Positions 1,068-22,028 of a DNA stretch of 64,000 bases are shown here, piece after piece (within the stretch, counting starts at the first letter, position 1; each line of letters begins with the position of its first letter). The translations under genes were made by a program, and so were the position numbers. The notes beneath the pieces were generated by a model that ran no database searches, was not told the DNA's origin, and was given only the letters and a program-made list of their open reading frames with translations. Source of the DNA: a virus. Where the stretch lies: the IMG/VR virus record IMGVR_UViG_3300040801_005898, one strand, 5' to 3'.

Positions 1068-4000
1068 ATGTTAGTTCTAAGAGAAGACGCGCAAAAGATA
1101 ATAACTGAATCTCAAATCAAAAGGATGACAGAGTTACTGCTTTCCTCTAAGGATTTTTACGATGAAGATGTCAAAATTTTGGAATTTGCGATTAATGATA
1201 ATGGTTCTATGTCAGGAAACTTTAAAGACTTGGACAATAACCGGGTTTTTGAGTTTGCTATAAATGGTCAAGATATTAGCTATAAACCTAGAATTAAAGG
1301 GCGTAGAGATTCTAGTAATTGGGACGACAATCGACTTTTGCTTCAATGGGAGGTTGAGTCTAAAATTTATCTTAAGCGGTTTCCAGAATCGCGGTTTGAT
1401 GCTCGTAAAAAGCGGGGCAAGGTAAAGAAGAAGCCAAAGTGTTCTGGTATTAGTTATAACTGCGGCAAACGGTGTTTGGGAGTTGATTTGAACTGCCGGG
1501 TTAGCCAACGGAATAATAAAAGCAAACAGCGTTTAGAAAACCTTCAAGAGCTAGCTAAAAAGCATAAAGCTGGTGAGGTAGGGCCGTTTTATGCTAACAG
1601 CGGGAAAAAGGCTAAAGAAGTTGAGGAGATGAGGAAGTCTGCTTATGAAGAGTCTATTAAGCGCAGGGAAACGGCAAGGGCTAAACGGAGGAGCAAGAAA
1701 GAGTCTGAAAATATTCAGCGTGGTAAAGAATCGGTAAAGAAGCGGAAGGCAGAAAAGGATAAAGGTAGCGATCGCGATCTATCTGAAAATGCTAAACGGG
1801 GCAAGAAATTAGTCGAAAAGAAAAAGGTTGAAAAATCGGCTAATGCTGAACCGTCTTCGCAAAGTCAACTTGTAAAAAATACTTCTTCAAAATCGTCATT
1901 ATCAACATCTAAAATTAAATCTAAAAGAGTCAAAAATGGTTTCCCTATGGTGACAACCAATATGATTGAAAATGACGCTAGAGGAAGATTTTTTAGAAGG
2001 TGGGAAAGAGAACAGCCTAAAATCCCTGGCAAAAAAGGTGATTTTACTGTTTTGAATGAAGACGGTAAAAGAAAAGAAATTTCTGGCGATAAATATGCCG
2101 ATTTGCTTGGCGTTGCTAAAAATGAACAGTCAGACGAAAATCCAGAATTACCTTATCATGTATATTCTCTTAAAACTGGTGAAAAGGTAATGAGAAAATT
2201 CGGTGACGAAAAAGATGCTGGATATGCTGCATCTTTGTTAATCAACTCTGGGATTGATCTTAAAAAAGAGCAATTTACGAATCGAGAAGAGGATGCTATA
2301 GTTGGCATTGCAAACGCTGTTAAAAATAAACAATATGATTTGTCGCTTGATGATGTTCGGCATGGAAGATTTCAGCAAGAAACTACCAAGGAAAGCAAAG
2401 AAGTCCAAAAGCAAAAGATAGAATCTAAACTGGCTGATACTAAAAAAAGGCTAGTATCTATTCGTGAAAAAGAACAAGATGGTATCCCCCGTGGAGTTTG
2501 GGATGTAGAAGACAAGCATATTTTGGAATACGATTTACGATATTACGAAGAACAATCAGCTAAACTTAACAGCCAAATTGTTGAACAAAGCGATCGCCCC
2601 ACAGAGAAACTATCCCCCACTGCGCAAAAAGGTAAAGAAGCGGTTAAAGAATGGAAAAAATCTAATAAAAAAGAACTAACTAATAAAAAGATATATCAAG
2701 AGCCTCCCAAGAAAACAATAGATGACCTTGAGAACAAACAGAAAGAAGGCGCAAGATACACTTCTAAAAATCCGTTTACACAAAAAGACAGCACGGAACT
2801 TCAACGCAGCAAAGATGGTTTTTCTTTTAATCCAAAAAATTCAGAATCTAAGTTGTGGAATACGTTAGAGAAGTTGGGAAATGATGAATGGCGAAAAGAT
2901 TTTGATAACGCCCCTAACGTGCCGCTAAAAAATGGATATGTTAAAAATAAAGGGTCTAATACAGGTGGGGGACCTGGTAAGTTGGGCAGAAAATTAAATA
3001 TTGCAAATACCAATCCAGAACGTTGGAAAGGAGGTGGAGGATATAGAATTGTAGATGCAAATACTCACTATGACCTTGATTTTAAAAGCAAGAAGTTATC
3101 TGATTTAAAACCAATATTAAACTATCTTGAGTCTTTGGATATTGACTTTGATAATCCAGAAAGATTAGCTTTTGGAAACCGCAATTTAGAAGGGGAAATT
3201 TTAAGAAAATTAGCAGCCAATTTAGAAGCAGATGATTTAGAGAGAAAAAAACAAAGCGATCGCTCCATAGAAACATTGTCTCCCACTGCGCAAAAAGGTA
3301 AAAAAGCGGTTGAAGAATGGAAAAAATCTAAAAAAAAAGAGATAACTAAAGGTGGAGAATATCAAGAACCAGCGACATCTGTAACAATTAAAAATCAAAG
3401 CGATTCTAAATATATTGCAGACATCAAAGTATTAAACCCTAAAAATGAGAAAATATTTAAACCTGCCGCATTTGAAGACCCAAACGACCCCAGATATACT
3501 CCCAAGCTAACCAGCAAGGAAATTAAAGACTTAAAAATCAAACTCTCAGAGGAAAAACAAGGGCTGACAGGAGGAGAACTTGCCAGGGTTAAATCTCATC
3601 GTACTTTGGGGGCAAATGGTGATTATATCAAGGCAAAAGGTGTCTCAAATCCTAAATTGCTGTTTAGTTCGGTAGATGAAAAGGAAAAAGCGATCGCGGA
3701 CTACCAGAATAATCTCGACAAAACCATCAGAGAGAAGACAGGTAAGCCATTCGATGAGAACTCCGACAACCACAATTATTGGCGGTATATAGCGCAGATA
3801 ACCCGTGATGAGCAGATAAAGACTTTTGAGGATGATTCTAATGATGTTGCGATAGAAGCCAGTCCCATCACGGTTAAGGCAGCAAAAAAACTGGTTGGCA
3901 GAAAAGATAACATGGTAGAAAGGGGTGGAAATGAACAGTTAAGCGTAAGTGGATGGAATGAATTTAATAAGATTGTGGCTAAAGACAACAATCTACCCAC

Positions 4001-17364: not shown

Positions 17365-17395
17365 ATCCTCGGTCTTTCGCCGGGGATTTTTTTTG
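17365..17395 (+). terminator. intrinsic terminator
   Basis: ATCCTCGG/CCGGGGAT stem plus T-tract. Confidence 0.75.
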
Positions 17396-17469: not shown

Positions 17470-17853
17470 GTGTATTTAATCATAAAAATTATTTTAACAG
17501 GAAAAATAGTCCCCAAGGCACGCCCTCGCTTTGGCAAGGGGAAATCCTACCTCCCTAAAAACTACCGCAACTGGAAAAATGGGTCTGTTTGTTACATGAT
17601 GGTATCCTTGCCCCCAGATTTTCAAACGTTTGAAAAGGCGATCGTTTCCATCAGATTCAAGGGGAACCATAACAGAAATGCAGACCTTGATAATCTCAGC
17701 GGGGCAATCTTGGATGCGCTAGTAGATGCGGGAATTTTGATAGACGATCGCCTCTCTGTAGTTCAAGAATTGCACGTTTATTTTGAGGATTCAAAAATAC
17801 CCCCAACCACAGAAATTAGTCTAAGGGAAGTTTTTACACCGGACAAAAAATAA
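17470..17853 (+). CDS. rusA: RusA-family Holliday junction resolvase
   Basis: PKARPRF...YRNWK...DLDNLSGAILDAL..G...DD. Confidence 0.88.
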   Translation: MYLIIKIILTGKIVPKARPRFGKGKSYLPKNYRNWKNGSVCYMMVSLPPDFQTFEKAIVSIRFKGNHNRNADLDNLSGAILDALVDAGILIDDRLSVVQELHVYFEDSKIPPTTEISLREVFTPDKK

Positions 17854-17885
17854 GCGCTTTTTGTGATAAAATGGTAGTCAAGCAC

Positions 17886-18766
17886 GTGCGATTCGTTGGG
17901 CCAAAGAAGCCATTAAGCAACATGGCCCGTCCCTAATAATAATGAGTGCCCCATAAGGAGAGCCTGTATTGTTACCGGGATAACTCATATTTTCATGTAG
18001 GTTAAATTCCTATCCCCTTGGTTAAGGGGTGACTCCGATGGTCAGGTTGTCAAGGAGTAGCGTTCTTGCCTCTCGGTGCATGGCCATAATGTAGGATAAA
18101 GCCCAAGGATTAGGGCCGAAGCCGCTAGGGAAGTCTAATATGGATAAGCACATGAATCTTATAAACTGTCGTTACTCCAGTCCGGGGTAATTATCCTTGT
18201 ATGCGGTGTAAAAACCCGCCCCGAAGCCAAAATGGTACGGTTCGTTTGCCCTTGGTCATTGTGTTTTGGTCCAAGTTTAACTGGTAGAACCCGGCAGAAT
18301 TAAGAGTCCTAAGTTAGACATGAAATGAAATATGGGAACGAAGTAACCCCTCTTGTCCTCCTGAAACATGGTAGGGAAAGCTTAACCACATGGACATTAG
18401 GAATAAGGATGCCCCAAAAAGCAAATGCCAATAGGAAAGCTATTTGGATAAGCTGACGTGGGACAGGTAACTAGGAGAGCAATTACGTTAATAAACTGAA
18501 TAATGCCCAAAACGTACTCAGGAAACTGACTAGCGTGGGATGCTATGTAATGCGTACAGTGTGCAAAAGACTGACATCTGTAATTGTCCAGATGGAGAGG
18601 CGAACACAATACGTCGAACGGTTGGCAGCCATCAAGGCGGTTACATAATGAAAAGTTGAAAGCAGAAAGCCATAATCACCTAGTCCAGGAGCCGTATGAG
18701 TTGGAAACTCTCATGTACGGTTTTGAAGTAGAGGCGAGGGGTTGAAATGCCCCCGTCGACTATAAC
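17886..18766 (+). mobile_element. ORF-less group II intron (IIB-like), 881 nt
   Basis: 5' GTGCG; domain V GAGCCGTATGAG..GAAA..CTCATGTACGGTTT at ~18688-18723; domain VI ending TATAAC; EBS1 GTGTTT (18261) complementary to IBS1 AAGCAC; no RT ORF. Confidence 0.88.
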
Positions 18767-18783
18767 TATCCCCAAAACAAAAA

Positions 18784-19599
18784 ATGCTAACATTAGAAAA
18801 CGTAAAGGATTTTTGTGCCGAAAAAGGCATTTCAGTTAACAACCTTTTACCTCCTCAAGAGGATTATGCTGAAAGATTATTACAGAAGTACACTTGGCAG
18901 ACCAGCGCTAGATATATAGCCTTGGTCTGCCATAAAGACTATGGTAAAAAAAGCAGTCTAGCGAAAAGTTTAGAGAGATTCTACAAATCTCCATTGGGAC
19001 AAGATTTCAAAAAACCAGGGACAAACGAAGAAGAGTGCAATATTGCTTTTAAAAAGAACCGCATTCAAAATACAAATTTGCCAGATACAGAAGTTTTGGC
19101 AAATATAGAAAATCTTCTTCATAAAGGAATAGCAGTACAAAAAATTGCAGACAGATATGGTTTGAGCGCAAGAAAAGTCCTCAAAGTTCGGGACCAACTA
19201 ATAACGACACATCCCGAATTAATAAATCAAAGAAAGAGAAAAAATGCTTCAAACATGAAGCATTATGGTCGAAAATCGGCCATCAAATCAGAACTTATAA
19301 AACAGAACGATATATCCTTTACTTTACTAAGCGAAAGGATTAAAGCTGCCTGTAGAACAGTGATGAGCGCATGGGAAGAGATGCTTATCACCGGGGAAGC
19401 GAATCAACTGCTTTTAACCCAAGAGCAATTAACGGGAAAGCTTCTTTTCACAAACCACAGAAAGTTATCGCCAAAAGAGGTATCTTGGGCGCAACAAAAT
19501 CTTAAGCAAGGATGGACAACAGAAAGCATAGCTTATGCCATGCGCGTGAATAAGAATTGTCTGCTAAAATACCTAATAGACAATTCTTACACCAGATAA
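18784..19599 (+). CDS. hypothetical protein with HTH-like segments
   Basis: VQKIADRYGLSARKV and TTESIAYAMRVNKNCL HTH-like patterns. Confidence 0.7.
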   Translation: MLTLENVKDFCAEKGISVNNLLPPQEDYAERLLQKYTWQTSARYIALVCHKDYGKKSSLAKSLERFYKSPLGQDFKKPGTNEEECNIAFKKNRIQNTNLPDTEVLANIENLLHKGIAVQKIADRYGLSARKVLKVRDQLITTHPELINQRKRKNASNMKHYGRKSAIKSELIKQNDISFTLLSERIKAACRTVMSAWEEMLITGEANQLLLTQEQLTGKLLFTNHRKLSPKEVSWAQQNLKQGWTTESIAYAMRVNKNCLLKYLIDNSYTR

Positions 19600-19604
19600 A
19601 AATA

Positions 19605-22028
19605 ATGAGTGATGATTTTCCAAGCTTGACAGGGCCATTGGTCTGTTGTCGTAGCTACAGCCGTCAAAAACATAATGGCGATCGTGAAACATGGATAGAG
19701 ATATGCAACAGAACGATTGATGGATTACAACGGTTAGGCAAGCTGACCGACAACGAAGCAAAATTGCTTTATGAAATGCAGGTTAATCTTCTTGCCATGA
19801 GTTCCGGTCGTTGGCTTTGGGTAGGAGGCACTGAATGGAGCGATTGCCCTGAAAATTACAGCGGGGCATATAATTGTAGCTCCACCAACATTAAAAACTG
19901 GGAATCTTTTGGCCTATTGATGAACCTGGCAATGATGGGTTGTGGCACCGGTGCGGTGTTGCTGCCTGAATACCTAGAATCTCTGCCAGTTATCAAGAAC
20001 AAGCTTAAAGTTACCGTATTGCAAGATTTGGGTCAAGTACCCAAAAGCGATCGCCTAGAACAAACCAAGATCAAATCTCACCCAGACGGGACAGTAGATA
20101 TCTGGGTAGGAGATTCCCGCCAAGGATGGGTCGAGTCTTACCAAAAATTGCTAGAACTCAGCAGCGACGACTCTTTCATCGAGGGAGAAATAAAAATTGC
20201 CATTCACTTAGAAAATGTGAGGCCCTCAGGCGAACGGCTGGAAGGATTCGGAGGGGTGGCAAACCCGGTTAAGTTATCCCAAATGTACGAACGGGTTGCT
20301 AAAGTTCTGAAAAAAGCAGTAGGCAGACAGGTTAACTCTTTAGAAGCTTGCTTGCTAATAGATGAAGCGGCTGTTTGTGTTGTGGCAGGAAATGTCCGCC
20401 GTAGTGCCGGCATGAGACAATTTGCCCAACAGGACAGGTGGGGAGAAACCGCAAAAAACAACCTCTGGCAACCCGGAGAAGACGGAACGTGGCGCATCGA
20501 CCCGGAACGAGACGCATTGCGCATGGCAAACCACTCCCGAATTTTCCACCGCAAACCTACTCTTGATGAAGTAGTGGAGGCAGTGCGCAAGCAATTTTAT
20601 TCTGGAGAAGGAGCAATTCAATGGGCAGGTGAGACATTAGCTCGTGCTAATGCAGATTTGCTGGATAGCGATCGCTTCAAGCAAAACTTTCTCGCCAAAT
20701 ATTCCGGAGGAGGAGCAAATGCCGCAAAAGGATATTTGTCACTACGCTACCTAGAAGAAACAAACTCCGAGATAAGCGATCGGGAATTGAAACACCGAAT
20801 GAAACGGGTGGGTTTGAATCCTTGTGGCGAGATTATCGGCAGCGACTATCACTGCAATTTGTCAGAAGTTCATCTTAATCGAATAGATCCGTTTGATTTT
20901 GACACTCAGGAAAAAGCGTTTACCGCAGCGGGCCTCGCTGTCGCATCTTTGTTGCAACACAAATTTGCAGTACCTCGCTACCAAGAAAGTCGAGAGTTAG
21001 ACCCCATTGTGGGAGTGTCTTTTACCGGGCTGTTTGACTTCTTTGTTAATGCTTTTGGGGCAGAGTGGTTGCATTGGTGGGAAACAGGATTATCCAAAGA
21101 TTTTATAACCGACAATCTTTCACCCCAGATGGTCAAACTATTGAATCTATTTGGAGTAGATGAAGTAGGCTATGAGGAAAACTATGCAGCTCTCAATGGT
21201 GGATATCGACTCGGGTGGGTATTTTCCGATTGTACCCAATGGTTTCTAACTCGTTGGAAAAAGATTGCGCAATATGCAATTTGGGCATATTGCGATCGCC
21301 ACGGTTTAAAACGTCCGAACCGCTACACCTGTGTCCAACCTGCCGGCACTAAATCTCTGCTTACCGGTGCATCTCCGGGTTGGCATCCTCCCTTCGGAAA
21401 ACGTTACATCCGTCGCATAACTTTTGCCAAAAACGATCCAGTCGCGCTGGCTTGTTTGGATGCTGGCTATTCCGTAGTGCCGGGGCAGTCAGATAAAGAC
21501 GAAAACGGAGTTTTGTTAACAAACCCTTACGATCCACGGGTTACAGAATGGCTGGTAGAAGTTCCCGTAGAAATGCCTTGGGCAAATTTGCCAGGTGTGG
21601 AAAACATAGAGATTGAGAAGTTTGGGGCACTAGCTACCTTTGATTTTTATATGCAAGTTCAGAAACATTGGACTACCCACAACACCAGCGCCACTATTTT
21701 GTTTGAAGAAAACGAGATAGAGCCGTTGGGGCAGCGGATATATGAAGCCATTCGAGATGATGAAGGTTACATCTCTGCTGCTCTATTAGCTAAAAGTAAC
21801 GCACCATTTCCCCGGTTGCCGTTTGAGGCGATCGATAAGCCAACTTATGATAAAATGGTGGAAAATATAGAAAAGCGATCGCGTACTGATGGAAATTTTA
21901 ATATTTGGGTAGCAGAATATTCTAAAGGAAAAGCGATCGCTCCTCAAGATTCTGCTTGCGAGGCATTAAAATGTAAAATGAATGCCGCAAAGCCAAACCA
22001 TAAAGAATATATGCCAAATTCCATCTAG
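19605..22028 (+). CDS. nrdJ: adenosylcobalamin-dependent ribonucleoside-triphosphate reductase (class II, monomeric)
   Basis: NPCGE, CNLSEVHL, TCVQPAGTKSLLTGASPGWHPP, C-terminal redox Cys pair; no intein seen; likely start 19605. Confidence 0.95.
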   Translation: MSDDFPSLTGPLVCCRSYSRQKHNGDRETWIEICNRTIDGLQRLGKLTDNEAKLLYEMQVNLLAMSSGRWLWVGGTEWSDCPENYSGAYNCSSTNIKNWESFGLLMNLAMMGCGTGAVLLPEYLESLPVIKNKLKVTVLQDLGQVPKSDRLEQTKIKSHPDGTVDIWVGDSRQGWVESYQKLLELSSDDSFIEGEIKIAIHLENVRPSGERLEGFGGVANPVKLSQMYERVAKVLKKAVGRQVNSLEACLLIDEAAVCVVAGNVRRSAGMRQFAQQDRWGETAKNNLWQPGEDGTWRIDPERDALRMANHSRIFHRKPTLDEVVEAVRKQFYSGEGAIQWAGETLARANADLLDSDRFKQNFLAKYSGGGANAAKGYLSLRYLEETNSEISDRELKHRMKRVGLNPCGEIIGSDYHCNLSEVHLNRIDPFDFDTQEKAFTAAGLAVASLLQHKFAVPRYQESRELDPIVGVSFTGLFDFFVNAFGAEWLHWWETGLSKDFITDNLSPQMVKLLNLFGVDEVGYEENYAALNGGYRLGWVFSDCTQWFLTRWKKIAQYAIWAYCDRHGLKRPNRYTCVQPAGTKSLLTGASPGWHPPFGKRYIRRITFAKNDPVALACLDAGYSVVPGQSDKDENGVLLTNPYDPRVTEWLVEVPVEMPWANLPGVENIEIEKFGALATFDFYMQVQKHWTTHNTSATILFEENEIEPLGQRIYEAIRDDEGYISAALLAKSNAPFPRLPFEAIDKPTYDKMVENIEKRSRTDGNFNIWVAEYSKGKAIAPQDSACEALKCKMNAAKPNHKEYMPNSI

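What the first reader, a model, noticed from the sequence alone, without database searches (positions are those of the whole stretch)
17860..18790. ORF-less group IIB intron inserted in a non-coding leader ahead of the nrdJ operon, with exon-binding pairing intact
Seen: 881-nt intron with no RT ORF. EBS1 GTGTTT (18261-18266, in a hairpin loop) pairs with the flanking AAGCAC (5 WC + 1 GU), so it still matches this site. It sits just downstream of an extended -10 (TGATAAAAT, ~17864-17872). Splicing would rebuild a 12-codon uORF ATG GTA GTC AAG CAC|TAT CCC CAA AAC AAA AAA TGC TAA that overlaps the ATG at 18784. Known: ORF-less group II introns in cyanobacteria can be spliced or mobilised in trans by host IEPs. 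Inference: splicing, possibly dependent on a host maturase, could gate expression of the 18784-nrdJ genes.
Basis: partly seen in the sequence, partly recalled or inferred. Interest (0 to 1): 0.65.

Follow-up and report, generated by a model that had tools for sequence, protein, structure and literature searches.

The report
ORF-less group II intron in cyanophage
A cyanobacterial phage carries, between two of its genes, an apparently intact self-splicing group II intron without its own protein gene; it was copied from a multi-copy family in the hosts, and instead of a gene it holds a folded RNA module that the hosts' IscB-type (HEARO) mobile elements also carry.

Summary
Observation confirmed. 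Window 17886-18766 is a complete 881-nt group IIB (chloroplast-like) intron with no reverse-transcriptase ORF. It lies 32 nt after the RusA stop and 17 nt before the start of a 271-aa ORF that precedes nrdJ.

Thirteen ORF-less relatives from cyanobacterial genomes (up to 79% identical) fix both boundaries. They show covariation of EBS1, EBS2 and EBS3 with each copy's own exons. In the window, EBS1 (6 pairs) and EBS3 match the flanks. EBS2 matches only with a one-base bulge. Core motifs are intact, and one phage-specific double change in domain VI is compensatory.

The regulatory reading is not supported:
- The proposed -10 overlaps the proposed uORF start codon, so the two ideas exclude each other.
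- The downstream start codon is predicted equally accessible before and after splicing.

Most likely this is a host-derived passenger, mobilised and perhaps spliced with host maturases supplied in trans.

New here: domain IV holds a ~120-nt covarying RNA module. The module is multi-copy in two cyanobacterial families, also sits directly 3' of ORF-less HEARO (IscB omega) RNAs, and is absent from the intron's nearest relatives. An earlier report of this scan (e1-5714231) noted such a module elsewhere in this phage.

Phage group II introns are already published (PMC12350094).

The parts
17470..17853 (+). RusA-like Holliday junction resolvase gene; its stop codon lies 32 nt before the intron
   Evidence: Pfam PF05866 E 1.1e-09; PHROG RusA families
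17864..17872 (+).
   Evidence: Sequence; not reported by the promoter scan, whose hit count equals the shuffled expectation (7 vs 6.0)
17872..17878 (+). IBS2: imperfect, 6 pairs with EBS2 if base 17875 bulges out
   Evidence: EBS2 loop is identical to that of L063, whose exon gives 7 perfect pairs
17880..17885 (+). IBS1: last six bases of the 5' exon
   Evidence: 5 Watson-Crick pairs plus 1 G-U with EBS1
17886..18766 (+). ORF-less group IIB intron, 881 nt
17886..18345 (+). Domain I (approximate 3' limit); closing helix is intron 7-12 with 452-457
   Evidence: Helix canonical in 8-13 of 13 copies at each pair
18133..18143 (+). 5' strand of the helix carrying an 11-nt-type GAAA tetraloop receptor (UAUGG at 18139-18143)
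   Evidence: Flanking helix covaries (for example CG 7 / UA 6 at one pair); motif conservation
18174..18180 (+). EBS2
   Evidence: Homologous loop pairs with exon positions -7 to -16 in family members
18261..18266 (+). EBS1, in a 15-nt hairpin loop
   Evidence: Covaries with each copy's own exon across the 13 copies; 11 of 13 with 6-7 contiguous pairs
18299..18299 (+). EBS3
   Evidence: Watson-Crick with the first 3'-exon base in 13 of 13 copies; the only column of domain I to do so
18308..18319 (+). 3' strand of the receptor helix (CCUAAG at 18308-18313)
18346..18485 (+). Domains II-III (approximate limits)
   Evidence: 72-82% identity to ORF-less relatives, and 77% to an intron that encodes a 644-aa RT/maturase/HNH protein (L036)
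18486..18680 (+). Domain IV (approximate limits), no ORF
18535..18656 (+). Structured RNA module in domain IV, shared with ORF-less HEARO elements and other introns
   Evidence: Covariance model R1 112.8 bits, the only copy in the window; covarying stems; distribution
18689..18722 (+). Domain V: AGC triad at 18690-18692, GAAA loop
   Evidence: Rfam alignment; family conservation
18728..18763 (+). Domain VI; bulged branch-point A at 18759, 7 nt before the 3' splice site
   Evidence: Helix covaries; the phage-specific change at intron 850/870 (U-A to C-G) is compensatory
18767..18767 (+). IBS3: first base of the 3' exon
18784..19599 (+). 271-aa ORF of unknown function (weak HTH hint)
   Evidence: N-terminus aligns from residue 1 with two homologues; no in-frame start further upstream across the splice junction (read)
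19557..22028 (+). Class II (B12-dependent) ribonucleotide reductase, nrdJ
   Evidence: PHROG 367 E 1.7e-149; 53% identity to Cylindrospermopsis phage homologues

Best explanation
This is an apparently functional ORF-less group IIB (chloroplast-like) intron. It belongs to a multi-copy, ORF-less family of filamentous-type cyanobacteria.

Inferred origin: a host copy, bound by a host intron-encoded RT/maturase supplied in trans, reverse-spliced into phage DNA. The site offered a full IBS1 and IBS3 match and an imperfect IBS2 match, which looks like retrotransposition to an ectopic site.

Inferred behaviour: the intron lies in the transcribed orientation, in the spacer between RusA and the 271-aa ORF. 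It is transcribed within a polycistronic phage mRNA and removed by branching at A18759, probably with help from a host maturase. No reading frame needs the splice, so the intron is mainly a tolerated passenger.

Domain IV carries a separately folding ~120-nt RNA module in place of an ORF.

Shown: identity, boundaries, exon pairing, conservation, family membership, and the module's distribution.
Inferred: the route of acquisition, splicing in vivo, and dependence on a trans maturase.
For: Intron features:
- GUGCG 5' end and Rfam domain V-VI hit.
- 13-member alignment with 59-78% identity to the window copy.
- EBS1, EBS2 and EBS3 covary with each copy's own exons.
- GAAA receptor, DI closing helix, DV and DVI are conserved or covary.

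Signs of function: the window copy departs from family-invariant positions at only 4 of 196. Two of those four form a compensatory pair in DVI.

No own protein: no RT in the intron or in the 64-kb window.

Host maturases: the five host genomes tested that carry family members all have maturase-domain genes. Trans mobilisation and splicing of ORF-less cyanobacterial introns is published (PMC2882425, PMC4649490).

Phage context: endolysins, RusA, nrdJ and a tail-fibre-like protein. ORF-less and intergenic group II introns in phages are published (PMC12350094).
Against: - There is no RNA evidence of splicing.
- IBS2 pairing is interrupted by a bulge, which could reduce splicing or reflect decay.
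- No protein-encoding intron closely related in RNA sequence was found beside the maturase genes sampled; only domain V matches.
- The compensatory DVI change may predate transfer to the phage.
Confidence: 0.7

Rival explanations
1. Regulatory gate. Splicing depends on a host maturase, is needed for expression of the 271-aa ORF and nrdJ, and rebuilds a uORF that tunes translation.
For: The 3' splice site is only 17 nt from the start codon. The intron lacks its own maturase. The joined exons do give a 12-codon frame that overlaps the ATG.
Against: The start region is predicted equally accessible in unspliced and spliced RNA. The uORF has no ribosome-binding site. Its ATG overlaps the proposed -10, so promoter and uORF cannot both act. 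The promoter scan does not support that site. Intergenic insertion is common for cyanobacterial introns (PMC2882425).
Confidence: 0.1
2. Cargo carrier. The phage keeps the intron because the excised, stable lariat delivers the domain IV module. The module acts on a host or phage factor that also recognises it on HEARO/IscB elements.
For: The module is a covarying, independently closed fold. It is absent from the nearest relatives of the intron backbone. It is present in other introns and directly 3' of HEARO RNAs in many genomes. An earlier scan note (e1-5714231) reports a comparable module in a second, abundant RNA of this phage; I could not check that.
Against: No function is known for the module. 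Host introns also carry it, so the phage may simply have inherited it. There is only one copy in the window.
Confidence: 0.12
3. Inactive relic. The intron no longer splices and persists as inert spacer DNA.
For: IBS2 pairing is imperfect. No open reading frame requires splicing. Truncated relatives exist in host genomes: L034 with domain I only and L013 with domains V-VI only.
Against: All six domains and the tertiary motifs are present. Only 4 of 196 invariant positions differ, and two of them compensate each other. EBS1 and EBS3 still match the flanks.
Confidence: 0.08

Closest known systems
ORF-less TeI3 introns of Thermosynechococcus elongatus (Mohr et al. 2010, PMC2882425)
   Same: Cyanobacterial group IIB introns without an ORF. 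They are multi-copy, have diverged into families with different EBS sequences, are mostly intergenic, and are mobilised by proteins of other introns in trans.
   Different: TeI3 introns keep recognisable ORF remnants in domain IV. Here no remnant was detected, and domain IV holds a structured module. This copy sits in a phage genome.
[quoted passage not shown]
   Same: Group II introns in phage DNA. Of 20 curated cases, six are ORF-less and two are intergenic, and trans mobilisation is proposed.
   Different: The word 'cyano' does not occur in that text. The Rfam D1-D4 models used there do not match this intron. This one has host relatives up to 79% identical, which identifies the source lineage. 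Three exact-pattern scans of IMG/VR for this family found nothing.
ORF-less group II introns of Trichodesmium (Pfreundt and Hess 2015, PMC4649490)
   Same: ORF-less cyanobacterial introns that splice in vivo and may need trans-encoded maturases.
   Different: Those lie mostly inside protein-coding genes of the chromosome. This one is intergenic and in a phage.
ORF-less HEARO (IscB omega RNA, Rfam RF02033) elements of cyanobacteria
   Same: They carry the same ~120-nt module, in the slot where the protein gene would be, between the omega RNA and a terminal hairpin.
   Different: The window has no HEARO RNA. Only the module is shared, and here it is embedded in an intron.
Plastid group IIB introns (Rfam plastid D5 models)
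   Same: Domain V resembles the plastid ndhA/ndhB type (41.4 bits, below that model's cut-off). The exact domain V pattern also recovered plastid DNA present as contamination in bacterial assemblies.
   Different: Similarity is limited to domain V.

Membership tests
Group II intron | 5' GUGYG, and a 3' end of AY after domain VI | tested here: met
   GUGCG at 17886; the intron ends in AAC at 18766, and the last base is C in 13 of 13 relatives
Group II intron | Domain V with catalytic AGC triad, bulge and GNRA loop | tested here: met
   RF00029 47.4 bits against a 40-bit cut-off; family conservation
Group II intron | Domain VI with a bulged branch-point A 7-8 nt from the 3' splice site | tested here: met
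   A18759; flanking helices covary
Group II intron | EBS1-IBS1 and EBS2-IBS2 pairing with the 5' exon | tested here: met
   EBS1 forms 6 of 6 pairs. EBS2 forms 6 pairs with a one-base bulge, or 3 Watson-Crick plus 3 G-U pairs in another register. Both covary across the family
Group II intron | Catalytic self-splicing or maturase-assisted splicing | not testable with these tools
   No RNA data were available
Subgroup IIB | EBS3 in domain I pairs with the first base of the 3' exon | tested here: met
   Intron position 414 is Watson-Crick with that base in 13 of 13 copies
Subgroup IIB, chloroplast-like class | Kinship to introns that encode CL-type proteins (RT, maturase, HNH) | tested here: inconclusive
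   Domains II-III are 77% identical over 97 nt to an intron encoding a protein with RVT_N, RVT_1, GIIM and HNH domains. No class-level phylogeny was done.
Subgroup IIC | Insertion just after a terminator hairpin or attC site; short domain I without EBS2 | tested here: not met
   No terminator was reported at the site; EBS2 is present; domain I is about 460 nt
ORF-less group II intron | No RT/maturase reading frame in domain IV | tested here: met
   The longest internal same-strand (+) ORFs are 43 and 53 aa, with no Pfam hit for these or the 70-aa minus-strand ORF; tblastn with a related intron protein finds nothing
Phage-borne group II intron (PMC12350094) | Located in a phage genome | tested here: met
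   Endolysin domains, RusA, phage-type nrdJ and a tail-fibre-like protein in the window. A prophage state was not excluded.
HEARO / IscB omega RNA (RF02033) | Match to the HEARO covariance model | tested here: not met
   No HEARO hit in the window. Only the module that follows HEARO in host genomes is shared.

The most novel reading that the evidence does not exclude
The ~120-nt domain IV module is a functional RNA 'cargo' that replaces the protein gene in two unrelated kinds of ORF-less mobile RNA: group II introns and IscB/HEARO elements. The phage keeps it because it engages a shared host or phage factor, and the excised intron lariat is its delivery vehicle.
Probability: 0.12. Interest if true: 0.8.

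Novelty: new member of a known kind. Interest (0 to 1): 0.5.

Why it matters
Host-to-phage transfer of a non-autonomous retroelement is documented here with the source lineage identified. The copy came from a host ORF-less intron family up to 79% identical. It sits at a site with full IBS1 and IBS3 pairing but imperfect IBS2 pairing, so it must have used a host protein in trans. This extends the 2025 discovery of phage group II introns to cyanobacterial phages.

The family alignment also gives a ready-made comparative model (EBS1, EBS2, EBS3, tetraloop receptor) for an intron lineage that the Rfam D1-D4 models miss.

The more unusual point is the shared RNA module. It occupies the 'gene slot' of both ORF-less introns and ORF-less IscB guide-RNA elements. 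I found no paper that links the two. It is directly testable by pull-down, deletion and structure probing.

Tried and rejected
Searches that found nothing:
- The intron and a 20-kb stretch found nothing in the phage collection.
- Four exact-pattern scans of IMG/VR (domain V, 5' end, module, family core) found nothing.
- No whole genome is held for the window.
- Searches with the 271-aa protein and its alignment found no related loci in viral or metagenome contigs.
- A permissive Rfam search gave no D1-D4 match.

Ideas rejected:
- Folding the whole intron alone is uninformative (z -0.9).
- A two-sequence consensus fold paired the EBS1 loop with an internal AAGCAC. I rejected this because the internal sequence is conserved in copies whose EBS1 differs.
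- My first guess for the domain I closing helix was replaced after the tetraloop-receptor helix was found.
- I considered the module as an ORF remnant. Rejected: one-base indels between copies, no Pfam hit.
- I considered the module as a hammerhead. Rejected: the core does not fit.
- I considered the module as part of HEARO itself. Rejected: no Rfam hit in L015 or L017.
- Promoter-like matches inside the intron (18622-18676) are no more frequent than in shuffled sequence.

Full report
**What is in the sequence**

The stretch 17886-18766 starts with GUGCG. It ends with a domain V-VI pair that Rfam's group II intron model scores at 47.4 bits, above the 40-bit cut-off. The domain V helix has the AGC triad (18690-18692) and a GAAA loop. 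Domain VI has a bulged A at 18759, seven bases before the 3' end.

The longest same-strand internal frames are 43 and 53 aa (a 70-aa frame lies on the minus strand), and all three lack any Pfam hit. A 644-aa RT/maturase/HNH protein from a related cyanobacterial intron finds nothing in the 64-kb window by tblastn. The element is therefore ORF-less, and the window supplies no maturase.

**Context**

The genes around it are phage-like and all on the + strand:
- M23 and GH108 lysins;
- RusA (17470-17853);
- the intron;
- a 271-aa ORF (18784-19599);
- class II ribonucleotide reductase, an AAA ATPase, a PAPS-reductase-like protein, a tRNA and a C5 methyltransferase.

A tail-fibre-like protein lies further on. 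The reductase is at best 53% identical to those of Cylindrospermopsis phages. No DNA match exists in the phage collection.

The intron lies 32 nt after the RusA stop and 17 nt before the ATG at 18784. That ATG is the true start for two reasons. Two homologues align from residue 1. Read across the splice junction, the frame meets a stop at 17867 with no start codon in between. The intron therefore interrupts no reading frame.

**Relatives**

The first sample of 401 cyanobacterial genomes gave mostly domain V hits. It also gave one domain I homologue whose similarity starts exactly at the first base of the intron.

Searching that genome's family gave many ORF-less relatives of 716-889 nt, often several per genome. 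The best is 79% identical over intron 1-606 and 87% over 787-881.

I aligned 12 of them with the window copy. Homology ends precisely at both proposed splice sites, and the flanks are unrelated from copy to copy.

**Exon recognition**

- **EBS1.** The loop homologous to 18261-18266 pairs with the last bases of each copy's own 5' exon. Eleven of 13 copies have 6-7 contiguous pairs, although the sequences differ between copies. In the window the pairing is 5 Watson-Crick pairs plus one G-U.
- **EBS2.** A second loop (18174-18180) behaves as EBS2 across the family. In the window it is identical to that of copy L063, whose exon pairs perfectly over 7 bases. The phage exon (17872-17878) has one extra base, giving 3+3 pairs around a bulge.
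- **EBS3.** Intron position 414 (18299) is complementary to the first 3'-exon base in 13 of 13 copies. It is the only domain I column to do so. This is the EBS3-IBS3 pair that defines subgroup IIB.

**Integrity**

- A textbook 11-nt GAAA receptor (18139-18143 with 18308-18313) sits in a helix that covaries across the family.
- The domain I closing helix, domain V and domain VI are conserved or covary.
- Of 196 positions invariant in the other 12 copies, the phage copy differs at four. That is within the range of its relatives.
- Two of those four (intron 850 and 870) are partners in domain VI, changed from U-A to C-G.

Nothing suggests decay. Splicing itself could not be tested.

**The regulatory reading**

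The TGnTAAAAT match at 17864-17872 is present but has no -35. The scan does not report it, and the scan's hit count equals the shuffled expectation.

Its last two bases are the first two of the proposed uORF's ATG (17871-17873). A transcript that starts a few bases downstream of that -10 would therefore lack the uORF start and most of IBS2. The two ideas exclude each other.

A terminator-like hairpin at 17365-17387, before RusA, fits a unit that runs RusA, intron, 271-aa ORF, nrdJ.

The predicted unpaired probability around the ATG is 0.62-0.65 with the intron and 0.56 without it. Folding gives no hint that splicing unmasks the start. The gating model stays possible but has no support.

**Likely history and mechanism (inferred)**

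All five host genomes tested that hold family members also encode maturase-domain proteins, 1 to 33 matches each. None of the sampled loci is close to this family in RNA sequence beyond domain V.

Published work shows that ORF-less cyanobacterial introns are mobilised and spliced by proteins of other introns (PMC2882425; PMC4649490).

The full IBS1 and IBS3 match combined with an imperfect IBS2 match fits retrotransposition of a host copy into replicating phage DNA.

Group II introns in phages were reported in 2025, including six ORF-less and two intergenic cases (PMC12350094). The kind is therefore known. I found no cyanophage case among the papers searched. I also found none of this family in IMG/VR by exact patterns.

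**The domain IV module**

Intron 650-771 (18535-18656) has no counterpart in the nearest relatives, which have about ten bases there. Yet it is 78-82% identical to non-coding stretches in other cyanobacterial genomes that have no intron beside them.

Eight copies align with a covarying closing stem and two covarying hairpins. A covariance model built from them finds one copy in the window. It finds copies in 49 of 151 and 58 of 143 genomes of two cyanobacterial families, up to 16 per genome.

The module occurs in three settings:
- In 8 of 15 loci examined it directly follows a HEARO (IscB omega) RNA, and the two of these loci inspected for ORFs show no IscB-sized ORF after it. Eight copies from one genome show the order: omega RNA, module, terminal hairpin.
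- It also sits just upstream of domain V in other ORF-less introns: L043 and L077, L083, and by coordinates G543 and G634.
- Some copies are free-standing.

The module thus occupies the gene slot of two unrelated kinds of ORF-less mobile RNA. Its function is unknown. I found no paper linking HEARO and group II introns in this way.

An earlier report of this scan (e1-5714231) described a module shared with host HEARO elements and introns in another RNA of this same phage. I confirmed the host side of that statement. I could not read the other phage locus, which lies outside the window.

**Verdict**

The intron is a new member of a known kind. The regulatory interpretation is unsupported. The domain IV module is the feature most worth following.

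Noticed in passing
window 18146-18151 (intron 261-266): An internal AAGCAC identical to IBS1 lies in a hairpin loop just after the tetraloop receptor. It is conserved in relatives whose EBS1 differs, so in this copy alone it could compete with the exon for EBS1.
   Followed up: partly
L013:6056-6134 (Synechococcales MAG) and L034:4730-5031 (G275): Isolated pieces of related introns. L013 has domains V-VI only, downstream of vWA genes. L034 has domain I only, with no domain V within 5 kb. They are either decayed copies or split introns.
   Followed up: partly
L064, 3' flank of the intron (G635:C289): Four bases after the 3' splice site the exon carries the first ~15 bases of another copy of the same intron family. 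This suggests tandem or nested insertions. Several copies sit in the same GGGTTGA-type repeat.
   Followed up: no
L043:707-1768 and 1838-3100 (G460): A 1062-nt ORF-less intron carrying the module lies immediately upstream of an array of seven tRNA genes. A second, sequence-identical copy of the matched module and DV-DVI segments lies elsewhere in the same genome.
   Followed up: no
L001-L012: The exact domain V pattern recovered short contigs in assemblies of unrelated bacteria (for example Hydrogenophaga, Blastococcus, Photobacterium). The longer ones scanned against Rfam (L005, L011) carry plastid ycf3 and ndhA/ndhB intron motifs, so these look like plant plastid contamination in those assemblies.
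   Followed up: partly
L017:1622-1664: A 43-base run of N lies directly upstream of a free-standing module copy, downstream of two small ORFs. The masked bases may hide the start of that RNA.
   Followed up: no
window 19557-19599: The listed TTG start of nrdJ overlaps the end of the 271-aa ORF by 43 nt. The true start may be further downstream, since the Pfam and PHROG matches begin at residues 8-23.
   Followed up: no
L135-L142 (G405): ORF-less HEARO elements share a fixed layout. Homology between copies ends at a common short motif after a GC-rich hairpin, which looks like the transposon's right end.
   Followed up: partly
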